A stretch of 64,000 nt of DNA from Zygnema circumcarinatum SAG 698-1b (taxonomy: Eukaryota; Plantae; Zygnematophyceae): the NCBI GenBank assembly GCA_037447605.1, contig CM074821.1, positions 1,922,001 through 1,986,000 on the forward strand. The letters are read 5' to 3'. The notes under the pieces were generated by a model. It saw only the letters and a program-made list of their open reading frames with translations, was not told the DNA's origin and ran no database searches. Below, one piece after another: positions 19,486 through 48,936 of this stretch (position 1 is the stretch's first letter; every line of letters begins with the position of its first letter). A program made the translations under genes and the position numbers.

Positions 19486-22400
19486 ATGGCTCCCACGCGT
19501 TTTCTCACACTGCACGGCCACTTAGCGCTGCTCCTCTTTGCCGCCTTCGCTGCGCGCCGCGGTGGCGCTGTGACTATCGACAGTGGAGACAGTGCGACGC
19601 CCTGACCCTGCTCCTGCCCCTTTCCCTTCCCCTACCCCTGCCCCTGCCCCTGCCCCTGACCCTGCCCCTGCCCCTGCCCCTGCCCCTGCCCCTGCCCCTG
19701 CCCCTGCCCCTGCCTCTGCCCCTGCCCCTGCCCCTGCCCCTGCCCCTACCCCTGCCCCTGCCCCTGCCCCTGCCCCTGCCCCTAACCCTGCCCCTGCCCC
19801 TGCCCCTAACCCTGCCCCTGCCCCTGCCCCTGCCCCTGCCCCTGCCCCTGCCCCTGCCCCTGCCCCTGCCCCTGCCGCTGCCCCTTCCCCTGCCTCTGCC
19901 CCTGCTCCTGCCCCTGCCCCTGCCTGACCCTGACCCTGCCCCTGCCCCTTCCCCTGCCCTTGCCCTGGTCCAAGCCCCTGCCCCTGCCCCTGCCCCCGCG
20001 CCTGCCCTGCCCTGCCTCTTCCCCTGTCCAGAATCTGCCGGGCCCCTGCCCTTGCCCTTACCCCTGCCCCTGCCCCTGCCCCTGCCCCTGCCCCTGTTCC
20101 TGCCCCTGCCCCTGCCACTACCCCTACCCAGTCCTGCCACTGCCCCTGTGCAGAATCTGCCCCTACACCTGCCCCTGCCCTGCCCCTGCCCCTGCCCCTT
20201 CCCCTGGCCCTGGCCCTGGCCCTGGCCCTGCCCCTGCCCCTGCCCCCTGCCCCTGCCCCTCCTGCCCCTCCCCTGCCCCTGCCCTCAAGCACTACCCCTG
20301 CCCAGCCCTGCCTCTGCCCCTGTCCAGAATCTGCCCGTACACCTGCCGCTGTCCAGAATCTGCCCCTGCCCCTGCCCCTGCCGCTGCCCCTGCCCCTGCC
20401 CCTGCCCCTTCCCCTGGCCCTGCCCCTGGCCCTGCCCCTGGCCCTGCCCCTGGCCCTGCCCCTGCCACTACCCCTTCCCAGTCCTGCCTCTGCCGCTGTC
20501 CAGAATCTGCTCCTGCCCCTGCCCCTGCCGCTGCCCCTGCCCTGGCCCTGCCCCTGCCACTACCCCTGCCCAGCCCTGTCTCTGCCCCTGTCCAGAATCT
20601 GCCCCTACACCTGCCGCTGTCCAGAATCTGACCCTGGCCCTGCCCCTGCCCCTGCCCCTGCCCCTGCCCCTCCCCCTGCCCCTGCCCATGCCACTACCCC
20701 GGCCCAGCCCTGCCTCTGCCCGTATCCAGAATCTGCCCCTGCCCCTACACCTGAATCTGACCCTGCCCCTGCCCCTGCCCCTGCCCCTGCCCCTGCCCCT
20801 CCCCTGCCCCTGCCCCTGACCCTGCCCCTCCCCTCCCCTCCCCCTCCCCTCCCCTCCCTCCCCTCCCTCTCCCCTCCCCTCCCTCCCTCCCCCTCCCCCT
20901 CCCCCTCCCCCTCCCCTCCCTCCCTCCCTGCCCCTGCTCCTGCCCCTGCCCCTGCCCCTGCCCCTCCCCCTGCCCCTGCCTCCCTGCCCCTGCCTCCCTC
21001 CCCTCCCTCCCTCCCTCCCTGCCCCCTCCCCCTCCCCCTCCCCTCCCTCCCCTCCCCTCCCCCTCCCCTCCCTCCCCCTCCCCTCCCTCCCTCCCTCCCT
21101 CCCTCCCTCCCCCTCCCCTCCCCTCCCTGCCCCCTCCCCTCCCCTCCCTCCCTCCCTCCCTCCTCCCTCCCCTCCCTCCCTCCCCCTCCCCTCCCTCCCC
21201 CTCCCTCTCCCCTCCCCCTCCCCCTCCCCTCCCTCCCCTCCCTCCCTCCCCCTCTCCCTCCCTCCCCTCCCCTCCCCCTCCCCCTCCCCTCCCTCCCCTC
21301 CCCTCCCCTTCCCTGCCCCTGCCCCTGCCCCTGCCCCTGCCACTGCCACTGCCCCTGTCCCTGCCCCTGCTTCCGGGCAGCGGCCGGCGAATCGCTCGTC
21401 GAGCCATGTGCTTGCAGATTGTCGTAAAATATGAGAAGGAACAATCTGTTTTCTTTGAAGAAAGCCACTAACGGAAGGGAGACGTAGAAAGTACTTTTCT
21501 GTCCCATTGTTAGTTTTGAAACTGAGCACGGCCTCAATCCTGCATCTGCTCGCGTTTGGGGCGCAGGGGATGCTCTTCTCGCTGTCAAAGCGGCATTCAA
21601 TGACGTGTCACATCTCACCTCCTGGACGGCGAGTAACGGCGACTGCAGCACCTGGGAAGGGATCGAATGCGAAGGAGTGGGATCGCCATATGTCGGCCGA
21701 GTTAATTACTTGTGAGCTTCTGTCTGACTGGTCACCGCTTGTTATCTTGTAGGACTCCACGGATTCCATAGCTTCTGAACTGCAGGCTGAGGCTATGAGG
21801 AGGTTTCTGCTGGATGCATCCTTCTCAGAAAGAGACCTAGAACCCTTCTCAGAAAGCGGCCTAAAATGGGCCTCCCGGAGCAGATTAGCAGACAGAAGAA
21901 TCTTCCTGCTCCTGCCCGATACCCTGTTTTCTGACTCTCTCACTGGTAACCTACCTTAAGCAGAAATTTACAAGGTTATGGACTTGGAGGGTCCATCTCA
22001 CCTGCCATCGGTGACCTGACAAGGTTGACAAATTTGTGAGTGGCTCCACTATATAAGGAGGTGTTAAATGCGTGTTTGCGAGTTCACAGTAATGAGGAGG
22101 GGTCAGATATGGGTGACGTGCTCAATTAGCAAAAGCAATAAACCGTTGCAGCTTTTAGAGAATGTGGGCCTCCCAACCTATTCTCGTGTCATTTTTTCTT
22201 GCTAAGGGTTGCAATTGAGTCCACTAAAGGGATTTTTGCCGAAGTCTAAGTCACATGAGGTCCGCTACTTGCTGCGAACATCGGCCAAGCTCGTGAAGAG
22301 TCGTTTTTTTTGCAGACTCTTGTCTTCTAATTCCCTTTCGGGCGCTATCCCCGAATCTATCGGCAACGTTAAAGATTTGGTATATTTGTAAGTAATCTTG

Positions 22401-28400: not shown

Positions 28401-31400
28401 TCATTTCCACCTCCCTCACCAACCCCTCTAAATTTTCCACCGTCTCCAGATCCCCCGCCTTACAGTCTTCCACCGTCCACATCCCCACCTCCCTCTCCGC
28501 CGCCACTCCAACCTCCACCGTCTCCATCTCCTCCGCCCTCCCCACCCCCTTCCAAACCTCCAACGTCCCCATCCCCACCTCCCTCTCCTCCTCCTCGAAA
28601 TCCTCCACCGTCTCCATCTCCTCCGGCTTCCCCACCCCCTTCCAATCCTTCATCGTCCCCATCCCCACCTTCCACTCCGCCGCCACTCCAACTTCCACCG
28701 TCCTCATACCCTCCACCCTCTCCACCACCTTTCAAACCTCCACCGTCCCCATCCCCACCTCCCTATCCACCACCGGTGCCGCAAACTATCGACAGTGGAG
28801 ACAGTGAGGCTCCCCTTCCTGCCCGGCCGCCGTCTGCAGCGCTGCTGCCGGGCAGAGTCGGGCTACTCGCTCGTCGAGCCTTTTGCTTGCAGATTGTCGT
28901 AAAATATGAGAAGGAACAATCTGTTCTCTTCGAAGAAAGCCTTTAAGGAAGGGGAGAGGTAGAATTTATTTGTCTGTCAAACTGTTGGTTTTGAAGCTGA
29001 GCTCGGCATCAATCCTGCATCTGCTCGCGTTTGGGGCGCAGGGGATGCTCTTCTCGCTGTCAAAGCGGCATTCAATGACGTGTCACGTCTCACCTCCTGG
29101 ACGGCGAGTAACGGCGACTGCAGCACCTGGGCAGGGATCCAATGCCAAGGAGCGCCATATTTCGGCCGCGTTATTTTATTGTGAGATACGCTCTGACTGA
29201 TTACCGCTTGTTATCTTGTAGGGCTCCACGGAGTCCATAGCTTCTGAACTGCAGCCTGAGGCTGCGAGGAGGGTTCTGCGGGATGAATTCCTCTCAGAAG
29301 GAGGCCTAGAATCTTTCTCAGAAAGCGGTCTAAAAAGGGCCTCCTGGAGCAGATTAGCAGAGCAGGAGAATCGTCCTTCTCCTGCCCGGTCCTTTGTTTC
29401 CTGACGCTCTCATTGGTAACCTGCCATATGCAGAGATTTACAGGGTTATGTCGTTGGAGGGTCCATTTCACCTGCCATCGGTGACCTGACAAGGTTGTTT
29501 AATTTGTGAGTGGCTCCACTCCATAAGGATGTGTTACATGCGTGTTTGCGAGTTCACAGTAATGAGGAGGGGTCAGACATGGGTGACGTGCTCAATTAGT
29601 AAAAGCAATAAACCGTTGCAGCTTTCAGTGAATGTGGGCCTCCCAACCTATTCTCGTGTCAGTTTTTCTTGCTAAGAGTTGCACTTGAGTCCATTAAAGG
29701 GATTTATGTTGAATTCTATAAGCATCATAACGACTTTTTACACGTTTCAATGTTTTTCAATTTGGAATGAAAGTGATAGAATTTCTAGATAGAGAATTGA
29801 AAGTTCAAGTTATTCTCTTATTTGAAATGGAAGTGCAAAATATCAATGCAGCTTTCAAAGAAGTGAGTCTGCCAATGCAGTCTCGCGTCCTAGCTCAGCC
29901 GTACATGCACACGATTAATGTTTAAGATGTCACATCATGTGCACGCGGACGGACGTGTTAGAGTTGCTCGAATGTGTTCCTCGGCATTCACTTGAGCTTT
30001 CTTTCCAAATGATTGCGCTACTTGCTGCGAACCCCGGCCAAACTCGTGTAGCCAGGTTTTTTTTCGCAGATACTTGTCCAGAAATAACCTGTCGGGCCCT
30101 ATCCCGGATTCTATTGGAAACCTGACGAATCTTAACAATTTGTAAGTATTTTTTTCTCTTATTGAAGAATCTGTAGAAACCAACGCCATTTTAGTGAAAT
30201 GGGGCTGCAACTGCATGCCCGTGTCCTAGCACGGCTGCACATGCACTCGCTTAATAATTCAGGAAGTCACGTACTGAAGTTGCTCGACTTTGCTCCTCGG
30301 CATTCACTTGAGCATTCTTTCCATATGAGTTCCGCTACTTGCTGGAAACATCGGTCAAACTCGTGAATATTTTTTTTATTTTGCAGATACTTGGATTTCA
30401 ATTCCCTATCGGGTTCTCTCCCGTATTCTATCGGCAACCTTGCCAAACTGGTCAATGTGTAAGTATTTTTTTCGAATATCTAAAAAAGCCAGTGAAAAAA
30501 ACCAGTGCAACTTTTAGATAGGTGGGGCTGCAAATGCATGCTCGCGTCCTATCTCGGCTGCACACGCTTGAAGTCGAGGATGTCGTGTCACGCGTTTATG
30601 GACGGTTGCACTGCAATTGCTTGTTGTTGTCCTTCGGAATGCACTTGAGCATTCTCCCCACATGAATTTCGCTTTTGGTTGCAAGCATCTGCCAAGCTCG
30701 TGAAGCCTCGTTTTTCTTGCAGATTCTTGAATTCTAATTCCCTGTCGGGCCCTATCCCGGATTCTTTCGGCAACTTTACGAGTCTGCAAATCTTGTAAGG
30801 ACTTTTTTCTCTTACTTAAACATGAAAGTGTAAAAAGTCAATGCAGCTTTTCGAGAAGTGCGCCTGAAATGCATTCTTGCGTCTTTGCACGGCTGCACAT
30901 GCACACGCTTAAAGTCTAGGACTTCACGACATGTGTACGCGGACGGACGTGATCGAGTCGCTCGATTTTGTTATTCGGCATGCACTGGAGCATCCTTCCC
31001 GCATGAGTTTCGCTTTTGCTGCAAACGTCGGGCAAACTCGTGAAGCCTCGTTTTTTTTTGCAGATACATGTATTCTAATTCTCTATCGGGCTCTCTTCCG
31101 AATTCGATTGGAAACCTTAAGAATTTGAGAATCATGTGAGTATGTTTTTCTCTTATTTGAAAAACAAAGCTTACAAAGGCCACACTATCCTTTCGAAAAG
31201 TGGAGCTGCAAATGCATTCTCGCGTCCGTGCGCGGCTGCACCTGCACACGCTCAGAATGTCACGTCCCCTGTACGCAGACGGACGCGTTAGAGTTGCTCG
31301 ACCTCGTTCCTCGGCGTGCACTTGAGCATTCTCCCCACATGAGTTTCGCTTTTTGCTGCAAACATCGGCCAAACTCTTGAAGCCTCGTTTTTTTCTGCAG

Positions 31401-34400
31401 GTACTTGCATTCTAATTCCCTGTCGGGCTCTCTGCCGGATTCTATCGGCAAGCTTACAAATCTTCAACAATTGTAAGTTATAGATTTCTCTTATTTGAAA
31501 AAAGAAAGTGTAAGAAATTAATGCACTTCATAGAGATGTGGGGCAGCGAAGGCATGCTCGTGTCCCTGTTCGGCTGCACATGCACGCGCTGTATGGTTCA
31601 GGATGTCACGTCACGTGTACGCGGACAGGCGGGTTAGATATGCTCGAATTTGTTCTTTGGCATGCACTTGAGCATACTCCCCACATAAGGTTTTTTGTTG
31701 TGGAAATCGGCCAAACTCTTGAAAAGTCATTGTTTTTGCAGGTGGTTGAATAATAACTTCCTATCAGGCTCCATCCCCGATTCTATCGGCAACCTAACGA
31801 CTGTGGAATACTTGTAAGTCTTTCCTTCTCTTGTGTGGAAATGGATATGTAAAGAGCCAATGCAATTTTTAGACAAGTGGGGTCGCAAATGCATGCATGC
31901 TCGCGTCGTAGCTCGGCTGCACATGCACACGCTTAAAGTTCAGAATGTCACGACACGTGTACGCGGACGGATGTGTTACTGTTGCTCGAACTTGTTCTTC
32001 GGCATGAACTTGAGCATTTTCCCCACATGAGTTTCCATTTCTGTTGCAAACATCAGTCCTCGGTCGTTGTTTTTGCAGATACTTGCAGTACAACTCCCTA
32101 TCGGGCTCTATCCCGGATTCTATTGGCAACCTTAAGGGTGTGAGATTCTTGTAAGTTTTTTTTTCCTCTTTTTTGATAAAGAAATTTAAATAAACCAATG
32201 CAAGTTGTAGAAGAGTGCGGCTGCAAATGCGTGCTCGCGTCCTTGGTCACCTGCGCATGTACGCGCTCAAAGGTCAGAATGTCAAATCTCATGTACGCGG
32301 ACGGACGTGTTAGAGTTGCCGACTTTGTTCCTTGGCATTCACTTGCGCATTATTTTCGAGTGAGTTCCGCTACCTGCTGCAAACATCGGCCAAACTCGTG
32401 AAGCCTCGTTTCTTTTGCAGACCCCTGTCATCCAATTCCCTATCGGGCTCTATCCCGGATTCTATCGGCAACCTTACAACTCTGATATATCTGTGAGTAT
32501 CTTTTGCCGTTCTTTAAAAATGGAAGAGAAAACAACCCATGCATGATTTAGAGAAACGGGGCTGCATATGCATGCTCGCATCCTAGCTCGGCTGTTTATG
32601 CACACGCTTAAATTTCAAGAAAGTTTGTGAAAACTGCGCCTTAGAATTCTTATAGATAAAAACTTATCTTTTTGATGCATGCGCACAACAATTGTTTGGA
32701 GATCCACGGATTCAAATTGTAAATTCTTGTTTTCCACTTATACGCAAACAAAGGGAAGATGGACGTGCATGTCTGGTTTATTTCGTGCTTTTTTTCGTAC
32801 CAGAACCAGCCTTATCCTTTTCTTTAAACTTTTCGCCTTGTGTCTGCAGGTCTTTGGATAACAACAAACTGGAGGGGAGAGTGCCCGGCTCCTTCAGTAA
32901 ACTAACCTCTCTGTCGACATTGTGAGAACTGCTGCATCGATAACGCTGTTGTCGTGATTTGAGTTTTTCGTTTTGTTTCTGAGCATTTGTAACTCTCAAT
33001 CTGTCAAATTTAATTTTGCAATTGCTTAAAGATTGAGTTGAAATAATTATTTGTCACTTAGTTTGAGCGTGGGCGCTAGTAAAGCACAACAACACGAAGT
33101 TTTGCACGGTTTAATCTGTAGAGTCTACGGTGTAGGGTTTACGATTGTAGTTCTTAACTTTCGAAGGGTTTAGGGGCTAATGACGGTGAGGATACAGAAA
33201 TTGTGGGGGTTTAGGTTGATCAGAGTCTACAGGATTGAATGTCAAAAGGATTAGGGTTCGTTGAGCTCAGAGATTTAGGGGTTTCGGGGTTTAGGGTTCG
33301 CTGAGCTGAAAGTGGTAGGGTTGAATATGGAGAATAAGGAAAATGTGCAAAATAGAATGGTTTTAATAGATGTAACCACACGGAAGTCTTAAACAGCTTT
33401 AGTTCGAAAGCTCCGATCTCTCTAACGTGCCATCCTCTCAATGCCATCAGGTTTTTGAACAACAACAAGTTGACAGGCTCCATTTATCTTGGGGCGAGTT
33501 CTAATGACCTCTATTTTGACTACAACTACTTCTCTGGGCCATTCTACGCAAGGGGGGTTCCCCTTTGCCCTAGCCATTATGCATCAAACTGCATTTTTCG
33601 AAGTGACACATTCTGCCCAGGCCTATATCAGAAATCGCTGCAAGAGTGTGCGTCCTTTTGCAGCAGCGACATTTCCGATGGAGCATGCGGGGGGCATGGC
33701 ACATGCGGATACGAGTCAAAAACGTGCACGTGTGACGCAGGATATACGCTGTCATCTGGCACATGTATTCTGCCCGGTCCACCACCAAGCCCTCCCCGTC
33801 CGCCTCCACCCCCTCCTCCGACTCCACCTCCCTCCCCCTCCGACTCCACCACCAAGCCCTCCCCCTCCGACTCCACCACCGGTGCCGCAAACTATCGACA
33901 GTGGAGACAGTGAGGCTCCCCTTCCCGCCCGCCTGCCGTCTGCAACGCTGCTGCCGGGCAGAGTCGGGCGACTCGCTCGTCGAGCCATTTGCTTGCAGAT
34001 TGTCGTAAAATATGAAATGGAACAATCTGTTATCTTTGAAGAAAGCCTTTAAGGAAGGGGAGAGGTAGAAATTACTCTTCTTTCCCCTTGTTAGTTTTGA
34101 AGCTGAGCTCAGCATCAATCCTGCATCTGCTCGGGTTTCGGGCGCAGGGGATGCTCTTCTCGCTGTCAAAGCGCAGTTCTCTAACGTTTCACGTCTCACC
34201 TCCTGGACGTCGAGTAACAGCAACTGCAGCACCTGGGAAGGGATCTCATGCGACGCAAGCGGCCGCGTTATTTACATGTGAGCTACTCCCAGACTGAACA
34301 CCGCTTGTTATTTTGGAGGGCTCCACGGAGTCCATAGCTGCTGAATTGCTGCCCGAGGCTGCGAGGAAGATTCTGCGGGGAAAAGCCTTCTCAAAAAGCT

Positions 34401-37400
34401 GCCTAAAACGGGCCGCCCGAAGCAGAGGAGCAGAGCAGACGAAGCTTTATTCTCCGGCCCGATCCCTTTTTGTCTGACAGTCTCACTGGTTACCTGCCAT
34501 TTGCAGAGCTTTACAAGGCTACGGACTTCGAGGGTCCATTTCACCTGCCATCGGTAACCTGAAAAAGTTGGCAATTTTGTGAGTGGCTCCATTCCATAAG
34601 GATGTGTTAGATGCGTGTTTGCGAGTTCACAGTATTGGGGAGGGCTCAGATCCGGGTGACGTGCATTCTTTCCAGATGAGTTCCGCTACTTGCTGCAAAC
34701 ATCGGCCAAGCTCGTGAAGAGTTGTTTTTTTTTTTTGCAGACTCTTGTCGTCTAATTCTCTTTCGGGCTCTATCCCGGAATCTATCGGCAACCTTAAACT
34801 TTTGGTATATTTGTAAGTAATCTTTTGTCTTATTTATTAGACTGAAAATGCAGATGACCAATGCAACCTTTAGGGACGTCGGGCTCTCGCGTCCTAGCTC
34901 GGCTGCGCATGCACACGCTTTCAAGTTCAGGATGTCACGTCCCGTGTACGCGGACGGGCGTGTTAGAGTTGCTCGAATTTGTACTTCGACATGCACTTGA
35001 GCACTCTCCCCACATGAGGTTCTCTTTTTGGTGCAACCTTCGGCCTATCTCATGAAGTGTCGGTTTTTTTGCAGATTCCTGGATTCTAATTCCCTATCGG
35101 GCTCTATCCCGAATTCCATTGGCAACCTCACGAATCTGCAAAAAATGTAATTATTTCTTTTTTGTTATTTGGCAAATAAAGCGTAAATAACCAACGCAAC
35201 ACTTCAAAAAGTGGGGCTACCAATGCATGCTCGCGTCCTAGCTCTGCTGCACACGCACATGCTTCAAGTTTTTGGCATTCACATCACGTGCACGCGAACG
35301 GACGTATTGCAGTTGTTGGATTTTGTTCCTCGGTTTTCACTTGGGCATTCTTTCCACATGACTTGCGACACTTGGTGCAAACATCGGCCAAACTCGTGAA
35401 TCCTCGGTTTTTTTGCAGATACGTGTCTTCTAATACGTTATCGGGCACTATTCCGTATTCTATCGGAAACCTTGAGAATCTGGGATACCTGTAAGTATTG
35501 TCATTCTCTTATTTGAAAATTACGGTGACGATTACCCAATGCAACCTTTCGAGAAGTGGGGCTGCAAATGCAGCTCGCGTCCCAGCGCGCTGCACATTCA
35601 TGTGCTTGAAGTTCAGGATGTTACATCCAGTGTATGCGGACGGGTGTTGCTCGAATTTGTTCTGCGGCTTTCACTTGAGCCTCCGGCTTTTCGTTTTTTG
35701 TTATGAATATCGGCCAAACTCATGAAGCGTCGTTTTTTTGCAGATTCTTGGATTCTAATTCCCTATCGGGCTCTATCCCGAATTCTATCGGCAACCTTAC
35801 GAATTTGGGTTTCTTGTAAGTATTATCTTATATTACTTGAAAAAAAAAGTGTAGAACATCACTGCCACTTCCAGAGAAGTGGGGCTGCTATTGTATGGTG
35901 GCGTCGTAGCTCGGCTGCACATGCACACGCTTAAAGTTCAGGATGTCACGTCACGTTTATGCAGACGGACGTGTTAGAGCTGCTCAAACTTGTTCGTCGG
36001 CGCTTCTCGAACTCGAGCATTCTCCCCACATGGCTTTCCCTTTCTGTTGGCAAACATCGGCCAAACTCGGGAGGCCTGTTTTTTTTGCAGATATCTGTAT
36101 TCAAATTCTCTATCGGGCTCTATCCCGGATTCTATCGGCAATCTCAGGAATCTTCAACACTTGTAAAATTCATTTCTCTATTTGAAAAAGGATGTGTGAA
36201 AAACCAACGTAATCTTTAGAGAAGCGAGGCTGCGAATGTATGCTCGCTTGGCTGCACATGCTCTCCCTTACAGTTCAGAATGTCACGTCACTTGTAGGCA
36301 GTCGGACATGTTCGCTCGAATTTGTTCCTCGGCATTCACTTTAGCCATCTCCCCACATGAATTTCGTTTTTGTGGCAAACATCGGCCAAACCCGTGAAGC
36401 CTCGTTGTTCCTTTGCAGACGCTTGTATTCTAATTCCCTATCGGGATCTATCCCGGATTCTATCGGCAACCTTACGAATCTGCAATACATGTAAGGTTTT
36501 TCTTTTCCTTAGTTGATAAAGTACGTGTAAAAAGTTAATTCATCTTTCATAAAAGTGGGGCTGCAATTGAATGCTCGCGTCCTTGCTCGGCTGCACATGC
36601 ACACTCTGAAAGTTCAGAATGTCACGTCACGTGTGCGCGCATAGACGTGTTAATGGAGTCGTTCAATTTTGTTATTCCACACGCACTTGATCATTTTCCC
36701 CACATGAGTTTCGCTATTTGATGGCAAACATCGTCCAAACTCAGGAAGCCTGTTTTTTTGGCAGACATTTGTATTCTAATTCTCTATCGGGCACTATCCC
36801 CGATTCTATCGGCAACCTCAGGAATCTGCGAGACTTGTAAGTATTCTTTTTTCTTATTTGAAAAAAAATCTGTGAAAAACAAACGCAATCCGTGGAGAAG
36901 TGCGCCTGCCCATGTATGCTCGTGTCCTAGTTTGGCTGCACGTGCACTCTCTTACAGTTCAGAATGTCACGTCACGCGTAAGCGGACGGACGTGTTCGCC
37001 CGACTTTATTCTTCGGCATGCACTTGAGCATTCTCCCCAGATCTGTCTCGTTTTGTGTTGCAAACATCAGTCAACCTTGTGAAACCTCGTTTTTAATCGC
37101 AGATGGTTGTCTTCGAATTTCCTATCGGGCTCAATCCCGGATTCTATAGGCGACCTTTCGAATCTGGAAAACTTGTAAGTTTGTTTTGCTCTTATTTGAA
37201 AAAGAAAGTGTAACAAACCAATGCAAGCTTTCATGGAATTGGGGCTGCAAATGCGTGCTCGCGCCCTAACTCGGCTGCATGTGCACACCCTTTAAGTTCA
37301 ATATGTCACATCACGTGTATGCGGACAGACGAACTGCAGTTGCTCGACTTTGTTCCTCGGCATTCTTTCACAGCATTTTCTCCAAATGAGTTCCACTACT

Positions 37401-40400
37401 TGCTGCAAAAACACCCGCTCAACTCATGAATCCTCGTTTTTCTGCAGATACCTGTTCGATAATTCCCTTTCGGGCTCTATCCCGGAGTCTATCGGCAACC
37501 TTACGAATTTGAAAAAAATGTAGTTATTTTTTCCCCTTTGTTGAAAAGGAAGTGTACAAAACCAGTGCAACTTTCAGATCAGTGCGGCGCAAATGGACGA
37601 TCGCGTCCTCGCTCGGCTGCCCATGCACACGCTTAAAGTTCAAGAGAGTTTGTGAAAACTGCGTTTTAGAATTCGTAGAAAGACAGACAGTTATCATTTT
37701 GATGCATGTGCTGAACAACGGTTTGGAGGTCCACGGATTTAAATAATGAGTTCTTGGCTCTTTTTATTGCACTGATTACCGAGCATGGAGTTGCATGTCT
37801 GGTCAGAAACCAGCCTCGTCCTTTTCGCTTAACTTTTGTCGTCGTGTGTTTGCAGGTTTTTGAATGACAACAAACTGGTGGGGAGAGTGCCCGCCTCCAT
37901 CAGTACACTTACTCTGTTGTATGCATTGTGAGGACCGCTCCATCTATATAGTTGTTGTCGTAGTCTGAAATTTTGTTCTGTTGCTGAGCATTTGAGCTCC
38001 GCTCTCTCTAACGTGCCGCCCTTAATGTCATCAGGTATTTAAACAACAACACGTTGACGGGCTCCATATCTCTTCCGAAAAGTTCTACTGATGTGTTGAT
38101 CCAAGACAACTACTTCTCCGGGCCATTCCTCCTAAATGGGCTACCCTTTTGTCCCAGAAAATTAAGCAACAACTGCATTTTCCATAATGATACATGTGGC
38201 GCAGCTCAGCAGAGATCTCTGCAAGCATGTGCGTCCTTTTGCCGCAGCGATGTTTCCGACGGAGCATGTGCGGGGCATGGCACATGCGGGTACGACACAC
38301 GCACGTGCACATGTGACGCAGGATATACACTGTCATCTAGCACATGTATTCTGCCCGGTAAGTTACAACTTGCTACTTTCAAATTCTCTTCGGAAGGCAA
38401 AGAAAAAGGTGGTATAGGTAGTGGAAATTATCGCATTCCTAACAGCATTTACACTGTCATTAACCATTCCTGTAAGGGCGCACTGAAGGCGATCCATGTG
38501 ATGCGGGCAATAGGAGTTCAATTCTCGAACTTCTAGAAGCATATCGCAAGAAATGACTTGATAAATTCACACAATCATTCAGAACATGGTGCAGAGTTTG
38601 ATTAGGATGTATCAAAAGTGCCGCTCGGATAACATGTTTTTGCCTTCGATGAACTTCTCGATTCATCCTAATCACGTGCAAGGCACAGCATATCTTGGTT
38701 CCATTTGCAAACGATAGATAAATTGCGAGTTTAACCTCGCTGCTTTAACAAAAAAAGAAATAGTGTGGCCCGAGAAATGACATAGGAATCAGAATTCGGC
38801 ATTTTTTCACGTTGTGGGTTGATTGCTTAAACTCTCGCAGAGATATCTCCACCTCCGAGAGCGCCACCACCTGGACCTCCTCCCATACCGCCACCGACTC
38901 CACCACCAAGGCCTCCCCCTCTGACTCCACCGCCAAGGCCTCCCCCTCTGACTCCACCGCCAAGGCCTCCCCCTCTGACTCCACCGCCAAGGCCTCCCCC
39001 TCTGACTCCACCACCAAGCCCCCCCCCTCCGACTCCACCTCCCAGCCCCCCTCCTCCAACTCCACCTCCCAGCCCCCCTCCTCCGACTCCACCTCCCAGC
39101 CCCCCTCCTCCAACTCCACCTCCCAGCCCCCGTCCTCCGACTCCACCACCCAGCCCCCCTCCTCCGACTCCACCACCCAGCCCCCCTCCTCCGACTCCAC
39201 CTCCCAGCCCCCCTCCTCCGAGTCCACCTCCCAGCCCCCCTCCTCCAACTCCACTTCCCAGCCCCCCTCCTCCGACTCCACCTCCCAGCCCCCCCCCTCC
39301 GACTCCAGCCCCCCTCCTCCAACTCCACCTCCCAGCCCCCCTCCTCCGACTCCACCACCAAGCCCTCCCCCTCCGACTCCACCACCAGGACCTCCCCCTC
39401 CGACTCCACCACCAAGACCTCCCCCTCCGACTCCACCACCAAGACCTCCCCCTCCGACTCCACCGCCAAGACCTCCCCCTCCGACTCCACCACCAAGACC
39501 TCCCCCTCCGACTCCACCTCCCAGCCCCCCCCCTCCAACTCCACCTCCCAGCCCTCCTCCTCCAACTCCACCTCCCAGCCCCCCTCCTCCGAGTCCACCT
39601 CCCAGCCCCCCTCCTCCGACTCCACCTCCCAGCCCCCCTCCTCCGACTCCACCACCAAGCCCTCCCCCTCCGACTCCACCTCCCAGCCCCCCTCCTCCAA
39701 CTCCACCTCCCAGCCCCCCTCCTCCGACTCCACCTCCCAGCCCCCCCCCCCCACCTCCAGCCCCCCTCCTCCAACTCCACCTCCCAGCCCTCCTCCGACT
39801 CCACCACCCAGCCCCCCTCCTCCGACTCCACCTCCCAGCCCCCCCCCTCCGACTCCACCACCAAGCCTCCCCCTCTGACTCCACCGCCAAGGCCTCCCCC
39901 TCTGACTCCACCGCCAAGGCCTCCCCCTCTGACTCCACCGCCAAGGCCTCCCCCTCTGACTCCACCGCCAAGGCCTCCCCCTCTGACTCCACCGCAAGGC
40001 CTCCCCCTCTGACTCCACCACCAAGGCCTCCCCCTCTGACTCCACCGCCAAGGCCTCCCCCTCTGACTCCACCGCCAAGGCCTCCCCCTCTGACTCCACC
40101 GCCAAGGCCTCCCCCTCTGACTCCACCACCAAGGCCTCCCCTCTGACTCCACGCCAAGGCCTCCCCCCTCTGGCTCCACCACCAAGGCCTCCCCCTCTGA
40201 CTCCCCTCTGACTCCCGCCAAGGCCTCCCCCTCTGACTCCACCACCAAGGCCTCCCCCTCTGACTCCACCACCAAGGCCTCCCCCTCTGACTCCACCGCC
40301 AAGGCCTCCCCCTCTGACTCCACCGCCAAGGCCTCCCCCTCTGACTCCACCGCCAAGGCCTCCCCCTCTGACTCCACCGCCAAGGCCTCCCCCTCTGACT

Positions 40401-43400
40401 CCACCACCAAGCTACCCCTCTGACTCCACCACCAAGGCCTCCCCCTCTGACTCCACCGCCAAGGCCTCCCCCTCTGACTCCACCGCCAAGGCCTCCCCTC
40501 TGACTCCATCGCCAAGGCCTCCCCCCCTCTGACTCCACCGCCAAGGCCTCCCCCTCTGACTCCACCGCCAAGGCCTCCCCCTCTGACTCCACCGCCAAGG
40601 CCTCCCCCTCTGACTCCACCGCCAAGGCCTCCCCCTCTGACTCCACCGCCAAGGCCTCCCCCTCTGACTCCACCGCCAAGGCCTCCCCCTCTGACTCCAC
40701 CGCCAAGGCCTCCCCCTCTGACTCCACCGCCAAGGCCTCCCCCTCTGACTCCACCGCCAAGGCCTCCCCCTCTGACTCCACCGCCAAGGCCTCCCCCTCT
40801 GACTCCACCGCCAAGGCCTCCCCCTCTGACTCCACCGCCAAGGCCTCCCCCTCTGACTCCACCGCCAAGGCCTCCCCCTCTGACTCCACCGCCAAGGCCT
40901 CCCCCTCTCCACCACCAAGGCCTCCCCCTCTGACTCCACCGCCAAGGCCTCCCCCTCTGACTCCACCGCCAAGGCCTCCCCCTCTGACTCCACCGCCAAG
41001 GCCTCCCCCTCTGACTCCACCGCCAAGGCCTCCCCCTCTGACTCCACCGCCAAGGCCTCCCCCTCTGACTCCACCGCCAAGGCCTCCCCCTCTGACTCCA
41101 TCGCCAAGGCCTCCCCCTCTGACTCCATCGCCAAGGCCTCCCCCACTGACTCCACCGCCAAGGCTCTCCCTCTGACTCCACTGCCAAGGCCTCCCCTCTG
41201 ACTTCACCGCCAAGGCCTCCCCCTCTGACTCCACCACCAAGGCCTCCCCCTCTGACTCCACCGCCAAGGCCTCCCCCTCTGACTCCACCGCCAAGGCCTC
41301 CCCCTCTGACTCCACCGCCAAGGCCTCCCCCTCTGACTCCACCGACTCCACCGCCAAGGCCTCCCCCTCTGACTCCACCGCCAAGGCCTCCCCCTCTGAC
41401 TCCACCGCCAAGGCCTCCCCCTCTGACTCCACCGCCAAGGCCTCCCCCTCTGACTCCACCGCCAAGGCCTCCCCCTCTGACTCCACCGCCAAGGCCTCCC
41501 CCTCTGACTCCACCGCCAAGGCCTCCCCCTCTGACTCCACCGCCAAGGCCTCCCCCTCTGACTCCACCGCCAAGGCCTCCCCCTCTGACTCCATCGCCAA
41601 GGCCTCCCCCTCTGACTCCATCGCCAAGGCCTCCCCCTCTGACTCCATCGCCAAGGCCTCCCCCTCTGACTCCACCGCCAAGGCCTCCCCCTCTGACTCC
41701 ACCGCCAAGGACTCCATCGCCAAGGCCTCCCTCTCTGACTCCACCGCCAAGGCCTCCCCCTCTGACTCCACCGCCAAGGCCTCCCCCTCTGACTCCACCG
41801 CCAAGGCCTCCCCCTCTGACTCCACCGCCAAGGCCTCCCCCTCTGACTCCATCGCCAAGGCCTCCCCCTCTGGCTCCACCGCCAAGGCGTCCCCTCTGAC
41901 TCCACTGCCAAGGCCTCCCCTCTGACTCCATCGCCAAGGCCTCCCCTCCTGACTCCACCGCCAGGCCTCCCCCTCTGGCTCCACCGCCAAGGCTCCTCCC
42001 TCTGACTCCACTGCCAAGGCCTCCCCTGACTCCACCGCCAAGGCGTCCCCTCTGACTCCACCGCCAAGGCCTCCCCCTCTGACTCCACCGCCAAGGCCTC
42101 CCCCTCTGACTCCATCGCCAAGGCCTCCCCTCTGACTCCACCGCCAAGGCGTCCCCTCTGACTCCACTGCCAAGGCCTCCCCTCTGACTCCACGCCAAGG
42201 CCTCCCCTCTGACTCCACTGCCAAGGCCTCCCCCTCTGGCTCCACCGCCAAGGCGTCCCCTCTGACTCCATCGCCAAGGCCTCCCCTCTGACTCCACTGC
42301 CAAGGCCTCCCCTCTGACTCCACCTCGCCAAGGCCTCCCCTGACTCCACCGCCAGGCCTCCCCCCTCTGGCTCCACCGCCAAGGCTCTCCCTCTGACTCC
42401 ACCATAAAGAGATTCTCTAGTCGCTCAACAGATTGCCTAATTTCTTCTTTTTTTATGTGACTTGCACGATCTTGCAGCTGCGGAGCTGGCTTCATTTTGG
42501 AGAATCGACGCACTCAATATGAGGGCAGTTAACCTACTTTTACTTCAAAGAACGACTGCAGATATCTGTGCGACGGCGTGTTTGGCGAATCCCAACTGTA
42601 TCGCGTTTGTTTTTAGGAGAGTTTCAAATATGGCGATCTTGGGAAATTGCACATTCCTAGGCCTTCCTGTGAGGTTATACGTTTCAAGCTCTCGACTGAC
42701 AAATATTTTTGTCCGGGATGTATTTGGTGTGTATCACTCTATCTATATCAGTATTTTCATTTCCACTTTTCATTGCTGGACTGAAATGCATTGGAGAGGA
42801 TTATTGAGTGTTGTCTTCTCTGAGTGATAGGATAGTATGAGTCAAGCCACGCTAGTCAATGATCCATTCCAATACACCGTCTATGCAAAGGTTGCTGGAC
42901 AGTCGTTAATATTAAGCTGCATTGTTCTCAGGTTTTCCATCCTGTGCACGCTTTGTGGCAGATTTATTTTCGGGTCCAGCTGCCGATACCGATCGAAAAT
43001 GGTGCCGTTACCGAGTTGTTGCTGCTGAGGGAAGTGTCGAAGTGTGCGCTAAGAAGTGCGTCCTTGACACTGCTTGCGCATACTTTTCTTACAAGCAGGA
43101 AACTGACACTTGTAGCTTTAAGAGGGGGGGTATAGGGCGAAATTTGGTGAGTCCTGGAGTCCAGCTCTACAAGAAGGTACGTCTCACCTTGGATATGGAT
43201 GCTGTCCATTTCCTCCTTTATAAAGCGGAGATGTGCTGGGTTTTGCAATTAGAACTCAGTTCTGCTTCTAGTGGGAACGATGTGTATTTCATTGAGCATG
43301 GCCGAGTTTAATTCAAGAACCGCATCTGTTTATTTTTGAAATATTGTACGGATTTGTTAAGTTATTGGAGCTAATTTTACGTTCTAACTTGAAATTCCCA

Positions 43401-45574: not shown

Positions 45575-48251
45575 GCCATACAATGTCTAACTATCATACA
45601 CTAACACTAACAATCCCCCTCTTGGGACTCAGTTCCTCATGGGCCCTAGCCCAATCAATCTGCTGTTCACTAGTAGTGTCTCCCCACTGACCCCCTTGGT
45701 CAACATGTCTGCAGCCTGCTCTTTTGTTCCTACAAACTTCACCACTATCATCCCTTCCTCTACCAACTCTCGCACATAATGATATTGCACCCTAATGTGC
45801 TTGGTTCTCTTATGAAACACAGGGTTCTCCATGAGGGCTGTAGATGATTGGTGTCATAAAGGAGTCAATAATGTTGTCAAGTTGCTTACATTCATCAAAG
45901 AAATGTTGGAACCACATCCCCTCCTTCGCTGCATGGCACGCTCCCATGTACTCTCCTTCGGTGCTCGACAGCGCCACCGAATCTTGTAACTTCGAGCTCC
46001 ATGAGATCGCGCCTCCTCCGTTCAGGAACACAAATCCTGACGTCGATCGTGACGTGTCCACATCACCTCCCCAATCAGAGTCGGTGTACCCGATCACTCT
46101 GGTTGGCCCCCTTTCAAATCTGAGACCGTAATCCAAGGTCCCTTTCACGAATCTGAAAATCCGCTTCACGGCCTCCCAATGTTCAGGACCGGGATTCTCC
46201 ATGAACCGACTTGCTGAGCTCACGGCTTTTGCCAAGTCAGGACGAGTACCTATCATCAGATACATTAAACTACGATGCCGAGTCTGCACACTGCGTACAT
46301 CTCTGTACCTGCGCAGTGTGTCGCCGGCATCATGTCTCGACACAGTCGCAATTCGATATCCCATCGGACTCGAACAGACGGCACTCCTCCATTGAACCTG
46401 GCAAGTGTGCTTGCGCGTACTTCTTCTGACAGAGAAATACAGCTCATCCTGCCTTCAGTGCGGCTGCCTGCAGAAATCTCGCCCTCCCCTAGATCCGACA
46501 TTTTGAAGTTAGCTTCCAAAAGCTGCTTCAAATCATTGATTCTCTCCAATGAGAGGCTCACCATTATGAGGTCGTCCACGTAGATCCCAACGTACATGAG
46601 ATCCGCCTCTTCTCCTTGTCGGTACACGGAATGATCCGTCTCGAATCGCGCAAATCCGTTACTCCGCAGGAGGTCATCAATTTTCTCGTACCAAATCCTG
46701 GGCGCCTGTTTCAGTCCGTACAGACTCTTCACAAGACGACAAACGAGATGCTCCTGCCCCGGGACAACTTTCCCTTCGAGTTGTGCATGTGGGTCTCCTC
46801 ACGAGGACCTGCGACCCTGAGAACACAGTCTGATGAAAGGTGATGTGCGTCATCCTCAGCTGCTGCAATCGATGTCAGTTACAAAAGGGAGTTGAACTTC
46901 ACCACGGGGGCGAAGGTCTCCGTGTAGTCGATTCCGTACGCCTGGCTGAAGCCCTTCGCCACCAGACGCGCTTTGTAACGGTCGACGCTCCCGTCCGCCT
47001 TTCGCTTCACCTTGAACACCCACTTGCATCCAATGGCCCTCCTTCCCCTCGGCAGCTCCTCAAGTCGCCACGTGCCGTTCTCTAGCAAACTGTCCCACTC
47101 GCTGTCGATCGCTGCTCGCCACTTCTCTCCATCGACCCCGTCGTGCGCCTCCTCAAAGGTTTGCGGTTCGGTGATCATAAAACAGTGGGCAGCTCCCGCG
47201 AGGTCCGCTGAGTCTGTAGGCACTCTTTCCTGTACTAGATTAGTCTGTCTAAGCATCTCCACATAGCATGTGAAGTCTTAAGGTCATACAGCATGGAAGA
47301 GGGACTTCCCCTCACGCTCATGACGATCTGGGTGAGGGCCTTGTTGTCCTTGGTCCTCCATCTGGCGAGCGCTGTGTCGAACTCCGACTGCCGCTCCGCC
47401 GTGGCTCCCTCCGGCTGCACCGGTGCCTTGATGGTGCCGTCAACGTACCCCAACAGCCCCTTGCCCACGAGCAAGGGAACCAGCCGCCATCTCCACCCCT
47501 TGTAGTCCGAACCATCGAACGCTGGGATGCTGAACTTCACGTGGTCTTCCTCGCCACCTTGGGCTCTGATACCACTTGTTGAAGCAGGGGTTTGCTCCCC
47601 ACTTCCGGCGCCACCTTGGGTGTCGCCCTCCATTGGAACTTGAGTTCCCACGGATGAAGACATTCAAACACTCAAAGCTCTATCTTACTTCACTCATCGC
47701 CCATAACAACAGAATGAAGCTACAAGACAAGCACAGCGGAAATCACAATGAGAGAGTGTTAGGAGAAAGCTCACGGCTCTAAAACTCCTTATAATAAAAC
47801 TGTCTTCCCACAATGAAGTTCTCCCACTACTTCAAGGTCCCTCTCACTCACTACCTCACGACACAAGTGTAGGCAGCCTAGCAGCACGAGCAGGCACAGA
47901 ATAAGACCCGAGACTATGACAAAGTAGTGTGGGTGGGTTACTTCCCATAATAAAACTATGCACTATATAATATGGCGTCCGTGACGTGACACACATGTCA
48001 CGTCGCGTCCGCCATTGCAAACCCATGCACTGAGTCTGAGTGGGCGCACTCAGGAATAGCGACCGGCTAGCTGCCTCGTAAACCTACGGCAGCGCCGACC
48101 TAGTTCTTGTCGGCTCGTACACCTGTCCGTACAGTATCGCCGTTTCGCCAGCGCTCCTTCCCAGTCTTCGCCCGCCGACACCTCGGCCGTACACTCGAAC
48201 TCGCGGACCCACATTGCGAGTGGTCCACGTGGCGCATTCCGGTTCGCCGCC
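45575..48251 (-). mobile_element. Ty1/copia LTR retrotransposon, internally deleted and frameshifted
   Basis: LTR part 48251-47577 ending TCAACA; tRNA-iMet PBS TGGTATCAGAGC at 47574-47563; gag N-terminus (FDGSDYKGWRWRL...GLLGYVDG); RT (CKWVFKVK...[25 protein letters not shown]); RNase H (GYTDSDW, SSTEGEY, RTKHI, ADMLTK); PPT AAGAGGGGGA; 3' LTR start TGTTAG at 45612. Confidence 0.93.
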
Positions 48252-48261
48252 NNNNNNNNNN

Positions 48262-48936
48262 GGCGGCGAACCGGAATGCGCCACGTGGACCACTCGCAAT
48301 GTGGGTCCGCGAGTTCGAGTGTACGGCCGAGGTGTCGGCGGGCGAAGACTGGGAAGGAGCGCTGGCGAAACGGCGATACTGTACGGACAGGTGTACGAGC
48401 CGACAAGAACTAGGTCGGCGCTGCCGTAGGTTTACGAGGCAGCTAGCCGGTCGCTATTCCTGAGTGCGCCCACTCAGACTCAGTGCATGGGTTTGCAATG
48501 GCGGACGCGACGTGACATGTGTGTCACGTCACGGACGCCATATTATATAGTGCATAGTTTTATTATGGGAAGTAACCCACCCACACTACTTTGTCATAGT
48601 CTCGGGTCTTATTCTGTGCCTGCTCGTGCTGCTAGGCTGCCTACACTTGTGTCGTGAGGTAGTGAGTGAGAGGGACCTTGAAGTAGTGGGAGAACTTCAT
48701 TGTGGGAAGACAGTTTTATTATAAGGAGTTTTAGAGCCGTGAGCTTTCTCCTAACACTCTCTCATTGTGATTTCCGCTGTGCTTGTCTTGTAGCTTCATT
48801 CTGTTGTTATGGGCGATGAGTGAAGTAAGATAGAGCTTTGAGTGTTTGAATGTCTTCATCCGTGGGAACTCAAGTTCCAATGGAGGGCGACACCCAAGGT
48901 GGCGCCGGAAGTGGGGAGCAAACCCCTGCTTCAACA
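48262..48936 (+). mobile_element. Copia LTR 3' part, exact mirror of 47577-48251, abutting host TIR-element sequence
   Basis: Ends TCAACA followed by CAATC; the downstream flank matches the uninterrupted site at ~44920. Confidence 0.85.

What the first reader, a model, noticed from the sequence alone, without database searches (positions are those of the whole stretch)
22316..37519. Splice junction bisects the hypervariable beta-strand, and any exon-to-exon join keeps the structural residue
Seen: the scaffold NSLSGSIPDSIGNL is nearly constant, while the exposed xxLxLxx positions differ in almost every repeat. Module 1: VYL|FLDS, QKL|YVSS, GYL|FLDS, GFL|YLYS, QHL|LLYS, QYI|HLYS, RDL|WLSS, ENL|YLFD. 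Module 2: NNL|YLDF, VNV|FLNS, QIL|YMYS, RIM|YLHS, QQL|WLNN, EYL|YLQY, RFL|PLSS. Every exon ends TT, CT, AT or GT and starts with A or G, so any join encodes L, I, M or V. Inference: skipping or shuffling makes new combinatorial strands from two half-sites; the Y/F/W/H-rich face suggests ligand binding.
Basis: partly seen in the sequence, partly recalled or inferred. Interest (0 to 1): 0.75.

Follow-up and report, generated by a model that had tools for sequence, protein, structure and literature searches.

The report
Reshuffled LRR half-strands in algal proteins
This genome, likely a green alga's, holds dozens of likely secreted leucine-rich-repeat modules in which an intron splits each predicted binding strand, a layout already known from plant receptors, but here the two halves of the strand turn up with different partners and change unusually fast, likely yielding many different binding surfaces.

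Summary
All 33 LRR motifs in the window are 72-nt exons with phase-2 introns in the first Leu of xxLxLxx, and 1089 of 1089 joins give L/I/M/V. That layout is published for plant LRR kinases (PMC3050792), and the safe join follows from the genetic code.

The exons belong to a predicted secreted protein: three [LRRNT–LRR array–Cys/EGF-like–Pro-rich] modules plus two PAN domains. All 15 other stretches fetched share the module; the EGF-like part has 48 matches in the genome. Named relatives are mostly Closterium.

Exposed positions diverge more than synonymous sites and introns in 18 of 18 arrays (0.61 vs 0.26 and 0.19); omega is 1.65–6.0. In 17 of 18 within-array pairs with an identical downstream half-strand, the upstream half differs.

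The skipping half is not supported. Spliced contigs showed adjacent joins; the odd joints I traced belong to paralogues. Contigs cannot prove absence.

Verdict: a new variant of known LRR exon shuffling. No ligand is shown.

The parts
19486..19591 (+). First exon, predicted signal peptide; ends in phase 1
   Evidence: Translation and hydropathy peak 2.7
21567..21711 (+). Module 1 LRRNT exon
   Evidence: Pfam LRRNT_2 E 1.6e-8
21964..22035 (+). Module 1 first LRR exon, 72 nt
   Evidence: a loose end in X2 joins it to 22316
22316..25079 (+). Module 1: nine internal 72-nt LRR exons, introns 251-274 nt
   Evidence: adjacent joints, at least two carrying module-3 bases
25287..26620 (+). Copy of the block before the N gap (four LRR exons); probable assembly duplicate
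   Evidence: 1334 matches, 0 mismatches; one 29-nt deletion seen by eye
26762..26833 (+). Module 1 capping LRR exon
26949..27271 (+). Module 1 final LRR + Cys-rich/EGF-like exon
   Evidence: EGF-family hits below curated cut-off, best E 7e-4
27755..28803 (+). Pro-rich linker exon with an N gap; ends in the same 19 nt as the first exon
   Evidence: 52-55% Pro
29042..29505 (+). Module 2 LRRNT exon (29042-29180) and first LRR exon (29434-29505)
   Evidence: LRRNT_2 E 1.1e-7
30070..32921 (+). Module 2: eight internal LRR exons and the capping exon (32850-32921)
33451..33909 (+). Module 2 Cys-rich/EGF-like exon running into a short Pro linker; frame shifts near 33830 in this assembly
34148..38357 (+). 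Module 3 (recent copy of module 1): LRRNT, first LRR, nine internal exons 34741-37519, capping exon, EGF-like exon
   Evidence: ten GT..AG adjacent joints plus one cut-shifted listed
38841..42400 (+). Long Pro-rich, extensin-like repeat; many frame slips in the assembly; end approximate
   Evidence: a loose end joins 38357 to its first bases
42478..43176 (+). Two PAN-domain exons (about 42478-42726 and 42932-43176; borders read by eye)
   Evidence: PAN_4 E 6.6e-5 (below cut-off) and PAN_1 E 2.9e-6 (above cut-off)

Best explanation
These exons are the repeat units of a family of likely secreted LRR proteins with Pro-rich, probably wall-associated tails, and their exposed strand positions are likely diversified by selection and re-paired by likely heritable recombination between repeats. 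The intron position is probably inherited from plant-type LRR genes. Because exon and intron were duplicated together, each array alternates two homologous blocks (scaffold, intron) with two short variable blocks (the half-strands). Unequal crossing-over or gene conversion that starts or ends in either homologous block gives a half-strand a new partner while frame and buried Leu survive. Shown: layout, excess of amino-acid change, re-paired halves, array lengths up to 19 exons, adjacent splicing. Inferred: recombination as the cause, secretion, and binding of a fast-changing partner, most likely microbial proteins.
For: 128 of 131 LRR motif hits in 15 other stretches have the same splice register; all 15 also carry LRRNT and the cap/EGF-like exon. 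The intron measure is near linear to about 0.3 and saturates at 0.40; one array is at saturation. Omega at exposed codons is 1.65-6.0 over two trees and two frequency models, p 0.002 or smaller against omega=1; scaffold omega 0.38-0.40. Identical downstream half-sites occur in 18 of 485 within-array pairs against 10 of 7900 between-array pairs; in 17 of the 18 the upstream half differs at 2-5 of 6 bases (mean 3.1; all pairs 3.4); 128 of 130 strands are distinct. In the clonal control (module 1 vs 3) 7 of 8 junction pairs are identical on both sides. In a folded Closterium homologue the equivalent Leu is the middle residue of the 3-residue strand.
Against: The youngest pair shows no excess: only 1 of 12 base differences between modules 1 and 3 is at an exposed codon (low power). 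Fourfold sites barely rise from within to between arrays (0.22 to 0.27), so the synonymous baseline may be held down. Recombination makes tree-based omega unreliable, and kappa for the null was taken from a 4-point grid. The 18 pairs are not independent: 10 come from one array (L005). Stretches were picked by likeness to one window exon (40 of 102 candidates scored), which favours similar scaffolds. Linkage across the intron (mean r 0.09) is not lower than across the exon (0.15; p 0.30, 9 arrays), so the intron is not shown to be a special hot spot. No ligand evidence.
Confidence: 0.65

Rival explanations
1. Exon skipping makes a repertoire of isoforms with new strands from one gene, as reported for brown algal ROCO genes.
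For: Any join keeps frame and a hydrophobic residue. Precedents: ROCO splice variants (PMC11378527), NLRP3 lacking exon 5 (PMC6642158), MtSERK3 lacking its first LRR exon (PMC3061892). Two exons in L009 have lost the acceptor AG and would be skipped.
Against: The well-supported contigs join neighbours: 7 of 9 joints, 11 of the 15 shown (of 34). One odd joint is an adjacent join of L006; two match a colinear sister of L001. Contigs drop rare forms, so this is weak.
Confidence: 0.12
2. Neutral by-product: exposed sites are merely unconstrained, and concerted evolution keeps scaffold and introns alike, leaving old variable islands.
For: Introns are similar even between arrays (0.18 for length-matched pairs); synonymous divergence is higher in exposed codons than in the scaffold in 15 of 18 arrays; flat fourfold sites; no excess in module 1 vs 3.
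Against: Within the exposed codons non-synonymous exceeds synonymous in 18 of 18 arrays, and the Leu codon between two exposed codons has an ordinary synonymous value, 0.25; omega above 1 in 4 of 4 fits.
Confidence: 0.13
3. Same genetics, other partner: the proteins serve self/non-self or mating recognition or adhesion between algal cells rather than defence.
For: Secreted, Pro-rich, PAN-tipped, no kinase motif found in 19000-45500. A Closterium receptor-like protein acts in pheromone response (PMC5736609; search listing only).
Against: Dozens of dispersed modules with changing repeat counts resemble defence gene families (general knowledge); spliced contigs occur in all four runs, whose conditions I do not know.
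Confidence: 0.25

Closest known systems
Intron-rich plant LRR kinases (ERECTA, SERK, SYMRK; rice multi-intron genes), PMC3050792
   Same: 72-nt one-repeat exons, phase-2 intron splitting the first Leu of xxLxLxx, origin by exon duplication and shuffling; plant LRR consensus and LRRNT_2.
   Different: No kinase motif found here; repeats and introns are young and alike, and exposed sites show strong non-synonymous excess.
Ectocarpus type II LRR exons and ROCO type I exons, PMC3341825 and PMC11378527
   Same: 72-nt exons, positive selection on concave-face sites; ROCO arrays recombine and are alternatively spliced. Type II has the same register as here, with sites 3 and 23 selected.
   Different: The shuffled type I exon holds the whole strand; the strand-splitting type II exons showed no shuffling in that study. 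Here the strand-splitting register shows re-paired halves. ROCOs carry a GTPase; these are predicted secreted.
Tetrahymena 90-bp LRR exon arrays, PMC6564038
   Same: Phase-2 arrays with a junction residue, expanded by unequal crossing-over.
   Different: Different repeat length and lineage; thousands of genes; retrotransposon link.
Human NLR LRR exons, PMC6642158
   Same: Exon border at one fixed place in the beta-sheet, so removal keeps the fold.
   Different: Variation by splicing; 28/29-residue repeats.
LRR-extensins (LRX/PEX) and PGIP (features recalled)
   Same: Signal peptide, LRR array, Cys-rich linker, Pro-rich tail; secreted LRR face.
   Different: No LRX among 31 PDB hits of the cap profile; EGF-like and PAN parts, tandem modules.
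Unnamed Closterium and 'Mesen1' LRR + Cys/EGF-like proteins
   Same: Same cap module: 19 of 26 hits Closterium, 1 Mesen1; some proteins repeat it many times.
   Different: Only 29-50% identical; fused to lectin, peptidase C1, LysM or oxidase domains; exon layout not checked.

Membership tests
Plant-type one-LRR-per-exon architecture (ERECTA/SERK register; Ectocarpus type II) | 72-nt exon encoding one repeat | tested here: met
   33 of 33 in the window; 128 of 131 elsewhere
Plant-type one-LRR-per-exon architecture (ERECTA/SERK register; Ectocarpus type II) | Phase-2 intron in the first Leu of xxLxLxx | tested here: met
   GT..AG joints; definition from PMC3050792
Plant-type one-LRR-per-exon architecture (ERECTA/SERK register; Ectocarpus type II) | Plant-specific LRR consensus and LRRNT_2 cap | tested here: met
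LRR receptor kinase / receptor-like protein | Kinase domain after the LRRs | tested here: not met
   Three kinase motifs sought on the + strand of 19000-45500, none found
LRR receptor kinase / receptor-like protein | Transmembrane helix or anchor | tested here: inconclusive
   The last exon is not fixed; some candidate frames are hydrophobic
LRR-extensin (LRX/PEX) | Signal peptide + LRR + Cys-rich linker + Ser-Pro4 tail | tested here: met
   10 SPPPP in 156 residues after module 3, no Tyr there; none in the module 1 linker
LRR-extensin (LRX/PEX) | Sequence kinship of LRR/Cys region to LRX | tested here: inconclusive
   No LRX in 31 hits; LRX2 far below receptor kinases for one exon; no tree built
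Brown algal ROCO exon-shuffling system | Whole strand within one exon (type I border) | tested here: not met
   Border is inside the strand
Brown algal ROCO exon-shuffling system | Positive selection on strand positions and mosaic arrays | tested here: met
Brown algal ROCO exon-shuffling system | Splice variants with different LRR sets | tested here: inconclusive
   Only contigs available; adjacent joins seen
Brown algal ROCO exon-shuffling system | ROC-COR GTPase domain | not tested
   Not searched as a family; the seven pieces scanned gave LRR, EGF-like and PAN hits only
Variable lymphocyte receptor (somatic LRR assembly) | Somatic rearrangement from donor cassettes | not testable with these tools
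   Needs single-cell or clonal DNA reads

The most novel reading that the evidence does not exclude
The intron inside the strand acts as a recombination spacer that lets two half-sites assort freely, so that an alga close to land plants keeps a fast-renewing, combinatorial repertoire of secreted wall-anchored LRR binders, differing between strains or even between cells.
Probability: 0.25. Interest if true: 0.75.

Novelty: new variant of a known kind. Interest (0 to 1): 0.5.

Why it matters
The headline layout is known. What may be new is a live example, probably in the algal sister group of land plants, where the ancestral plant LRR exon register is being duplicated and re-paired under selection; the same register showed no shuffling in Ectocarpus. 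It offers candidate extracellular recognition proteins in a lineage whose defences are poorly known, and a testable model of how plant LRR binding faces were first diversified. I found no paper on this family in eight searches; the library lacks most subscription journals.

Tried and rejected
No RNA holder listed; runs X1-X4 are unlabelled, but their contigs jump GT..AG introns. Absence of skip joints in contigs is not proof; 19 of 34 joints were not shown. Contig depth looks higher on module 3 than on modules 1 and 2, but the tool says contig depth cannot rank parts, so I draw nothing from it. No back-joint supporting the duplicate block was listed; this too is only absence. A single-sequence homologue search found nothing; the profile did. 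The Atlas gave only generic LRR clusters below 0.9. Three exact pattern searches for the sister copy of L001 found nothing in the assembly; looser ones led to L001 itself and to two other places, of which L018 is another array and L016 showed none. The idea that the intron is a preferred breakpoint was tested and not supported. The first omega=1 fits fixed kappa at 2 and were replaced. The window's own spliced protein was not folded; a Closterium homologue stood in, and the tool gives no coordinates, so the concave-face placement rests on established LRR structure. Rows left out of counts: duplicate block, module 3, capping exons and arrays under 4 exons; also the L011 tail; arrays under 6 junctions. 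PMC5296948 and PMC2817689 passages gave nothing on the register. Earlier scan notes: none.
Full report
Observation. The window has 33 LRR cores, all on the + strand, and each is a 72-nt exon of 1 base, 23 codons and 2 bases between AG and GT. All 1089 possible joins give L, I, M or V. Three more 72-nt exons form the first repeat of each module. The safe join is a property of the code: a codon with T in second place is hydrophobic whatever follows. In a wider set of 187 exons, 33,875 of 34,969 joins give L/I/M/V, 720 give F and 374 give A or T.

Gene anatomy. A first exon with a hydrophobic stretch (19486-19591) is followed by three modules of LRRNT, LRR array, capping repeat, Cys-rich/EGF-like exon and Pro-rich linker, then a long Pro-rich repeat and two PAN exons. 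No kinase motif was found in 19000-45500. Module 3 is a recent copy of module 1 (12 of 720 exon bases; introns 1.6%). Four exons after the N gap at 25277 lie in a block with no mismatch to the block before it and are probably an assembly duplicate. The module 2 linker shifts frame near 33830 in this assembly, so a single three-module protein is likely but not shown.

Family. One exon found 71 matches among 40 of 102 candidates scored. I fetched 15 stretches around them. In these, 128 of 131 LRR motifs have the same splice register, and all 15 carry LRRNT and the cap/EGF-like exon. The EGF-like part has 48 matches among 76 candidates, 3 of them in the window. A profile of the cap exon found 26 longer proteins: 19 Closterium, 1 Mesen1 (recalled as Mesotaenium), 1 Malus, 5 without a taxon. 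I infer a zygnematophyte-like alga; this is not shown directly.

Structure. A Closterium homologue with the same repeat type folded with block pLDDT 85-98 over residues 1-300. Its strands are three residues long, with the Leu equivalent to the junction residue in the middle. Its nearest solved folds are MIK2, GSO1 and ERL ectodomains. That the flanking positions line the concave face is established LRR knowledge, not computed here.

Selection. Within 18 arrays (139 exons; 16 arrays outside the window), non-synonymous divergence at the five exposed codons averaged 0.61, against 0.09 in the scaffold, 0.26 synonymous, 0.35 synonymous within the exposed codons and 0.19 in introns. It was the largest in 18 of 18 arrays. 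The window's own modules gave 0.49 and 0.60 against introns at 0.27 and 0.25. The intron measure tracks true divergence to about 0.3 and saturates at 0.40. Likelihood fits gave omega 1.65-6.0 for exposed codons, above 1 in 4 of 4 fits, and 0.38-0.40 for the scaffold. Against: fourfold sites are nearly flat between arrays (0.22 vs 0.27), trees are unreliable under recombination, and only 1 of 12 differences between modules 1 and 3 hits an exposed codon.

Shuffling. Of 130 junctions, 128 give distinct strands. Identical downstream half-sites are about 30 times commoner within arrays (18 of 485 pairs) than between (10 of 7900), so they are likely copies; yet in 17 of 18 the upstream half differs almost as much as in random pairs. 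Ten of the 18 come from L005, where one half-site has three different partners; one pair is in the window (the two FLDS exons of module 1). In 13 of the 18 the far end of the same exon also differs at 3 or more of 6 bases, and linkage is low across both intron (r 0.09) and scaffold (0.15). So the unit that moves is the half-strand, with breakpoints in both homologous blocks. The intron is one route, not a proven hot spot.

Splicing. Four unlabelled runs from one study hold the region as contigs that jump GT..AG introns. On module 1, 7 of 9 joints were adjacent; of the 15 shown out of 34 on modules 2-3, 11 were adjacent. One odd joint equals an adjacent join in L006. Two others lie on a contig that reads like a colinear sister of L001 with four amino-acid changes, all at exposed positions; exact searches did not find that copy in the assembly. 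The remaining two odd joints are not at splice sites and were not traced. No skipped form was seen; contigs cannot exclude rare ones.

What is known. PMC3050792 (abstract and passages) states that plant LRR-kinase introns split the first Leu of xxLxLxx in phase 2, mostly as 72-nt exons, arising by duplication and shuffling, and cites ERECTA, SERK and SYMRK. PMC3341825 (passages and section 15) describes shuffled, selected 72-nt type I exons and unshuffled type II exons in the register seen here; its supplementary table 4, not read, holds the type II site values. PMC11378527 (passages) adds splice variants. PMC6642158, PMC6564038 and PMC3061892 were read as passages. PMC11096116 (passages) mentions LRR enrichment in Zygnematophyceae, with no EGF mention and nothing on exon layout in those passages. 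LRX, PGIP and VLR features are recalled.

Verdict. New variant of a known kind, interest 0.5.

Noticed in passing
window 19573, 28785, 33891: The first exon and both linker exons end in the same 19 bases and the same phase, so whole modules could be skipped or duplicated in frame; this likely marks the module duplication breakpoint.
   Followed up: partly
window about 33830: Frame shift in the C-rich linker of module 2; assembly slip or real truncation is unresolved.
   Followed up: partly
L001:3809-4521 (contigs): Spliced contigs show a colinear sister of this array with four amino-acid changes, all at exposed positions; exact searches did not find it in the assembly.
   Followed up: partly
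L009:5607 and 6199: Two intact-looking LRR exons have AA instead of the acceptor AG; possibly decayed or skipped cassettes.
   Followed up: no
L006:7031 and 8796; L011:7038 and 9030: Identical duplicated blocks in other loci, like the window's duplicate; possibly a recurring assembly artefact.
   Followed up: no
proteins P0027, P0028, P0030, P0037: Closterium proteins of 1761-4012 residues with 5-12 matched stretches of the cap profile; tandem-module proteins recur in the lineage.
   Followed up: partly
window 13500-15130 and 19610-21360: A 1.6-kb CA repeat upstream of the gene and a 1.7-kb C-rich repeat inside its first intron.
   Followed up: no
window 45600-47600 (-) and 48020-48900: Copia-like retrotransposon fragment, judged by eye, and a long inverted repeat centred on the N gap at 48252.
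   Followed up: no
window 1043-1774 (-) and 3227-4072 (-): An RLK/Pelle-like kinase start and an AzgA-like purine permease exon (family names recalled, not tested).
   Followed up: no
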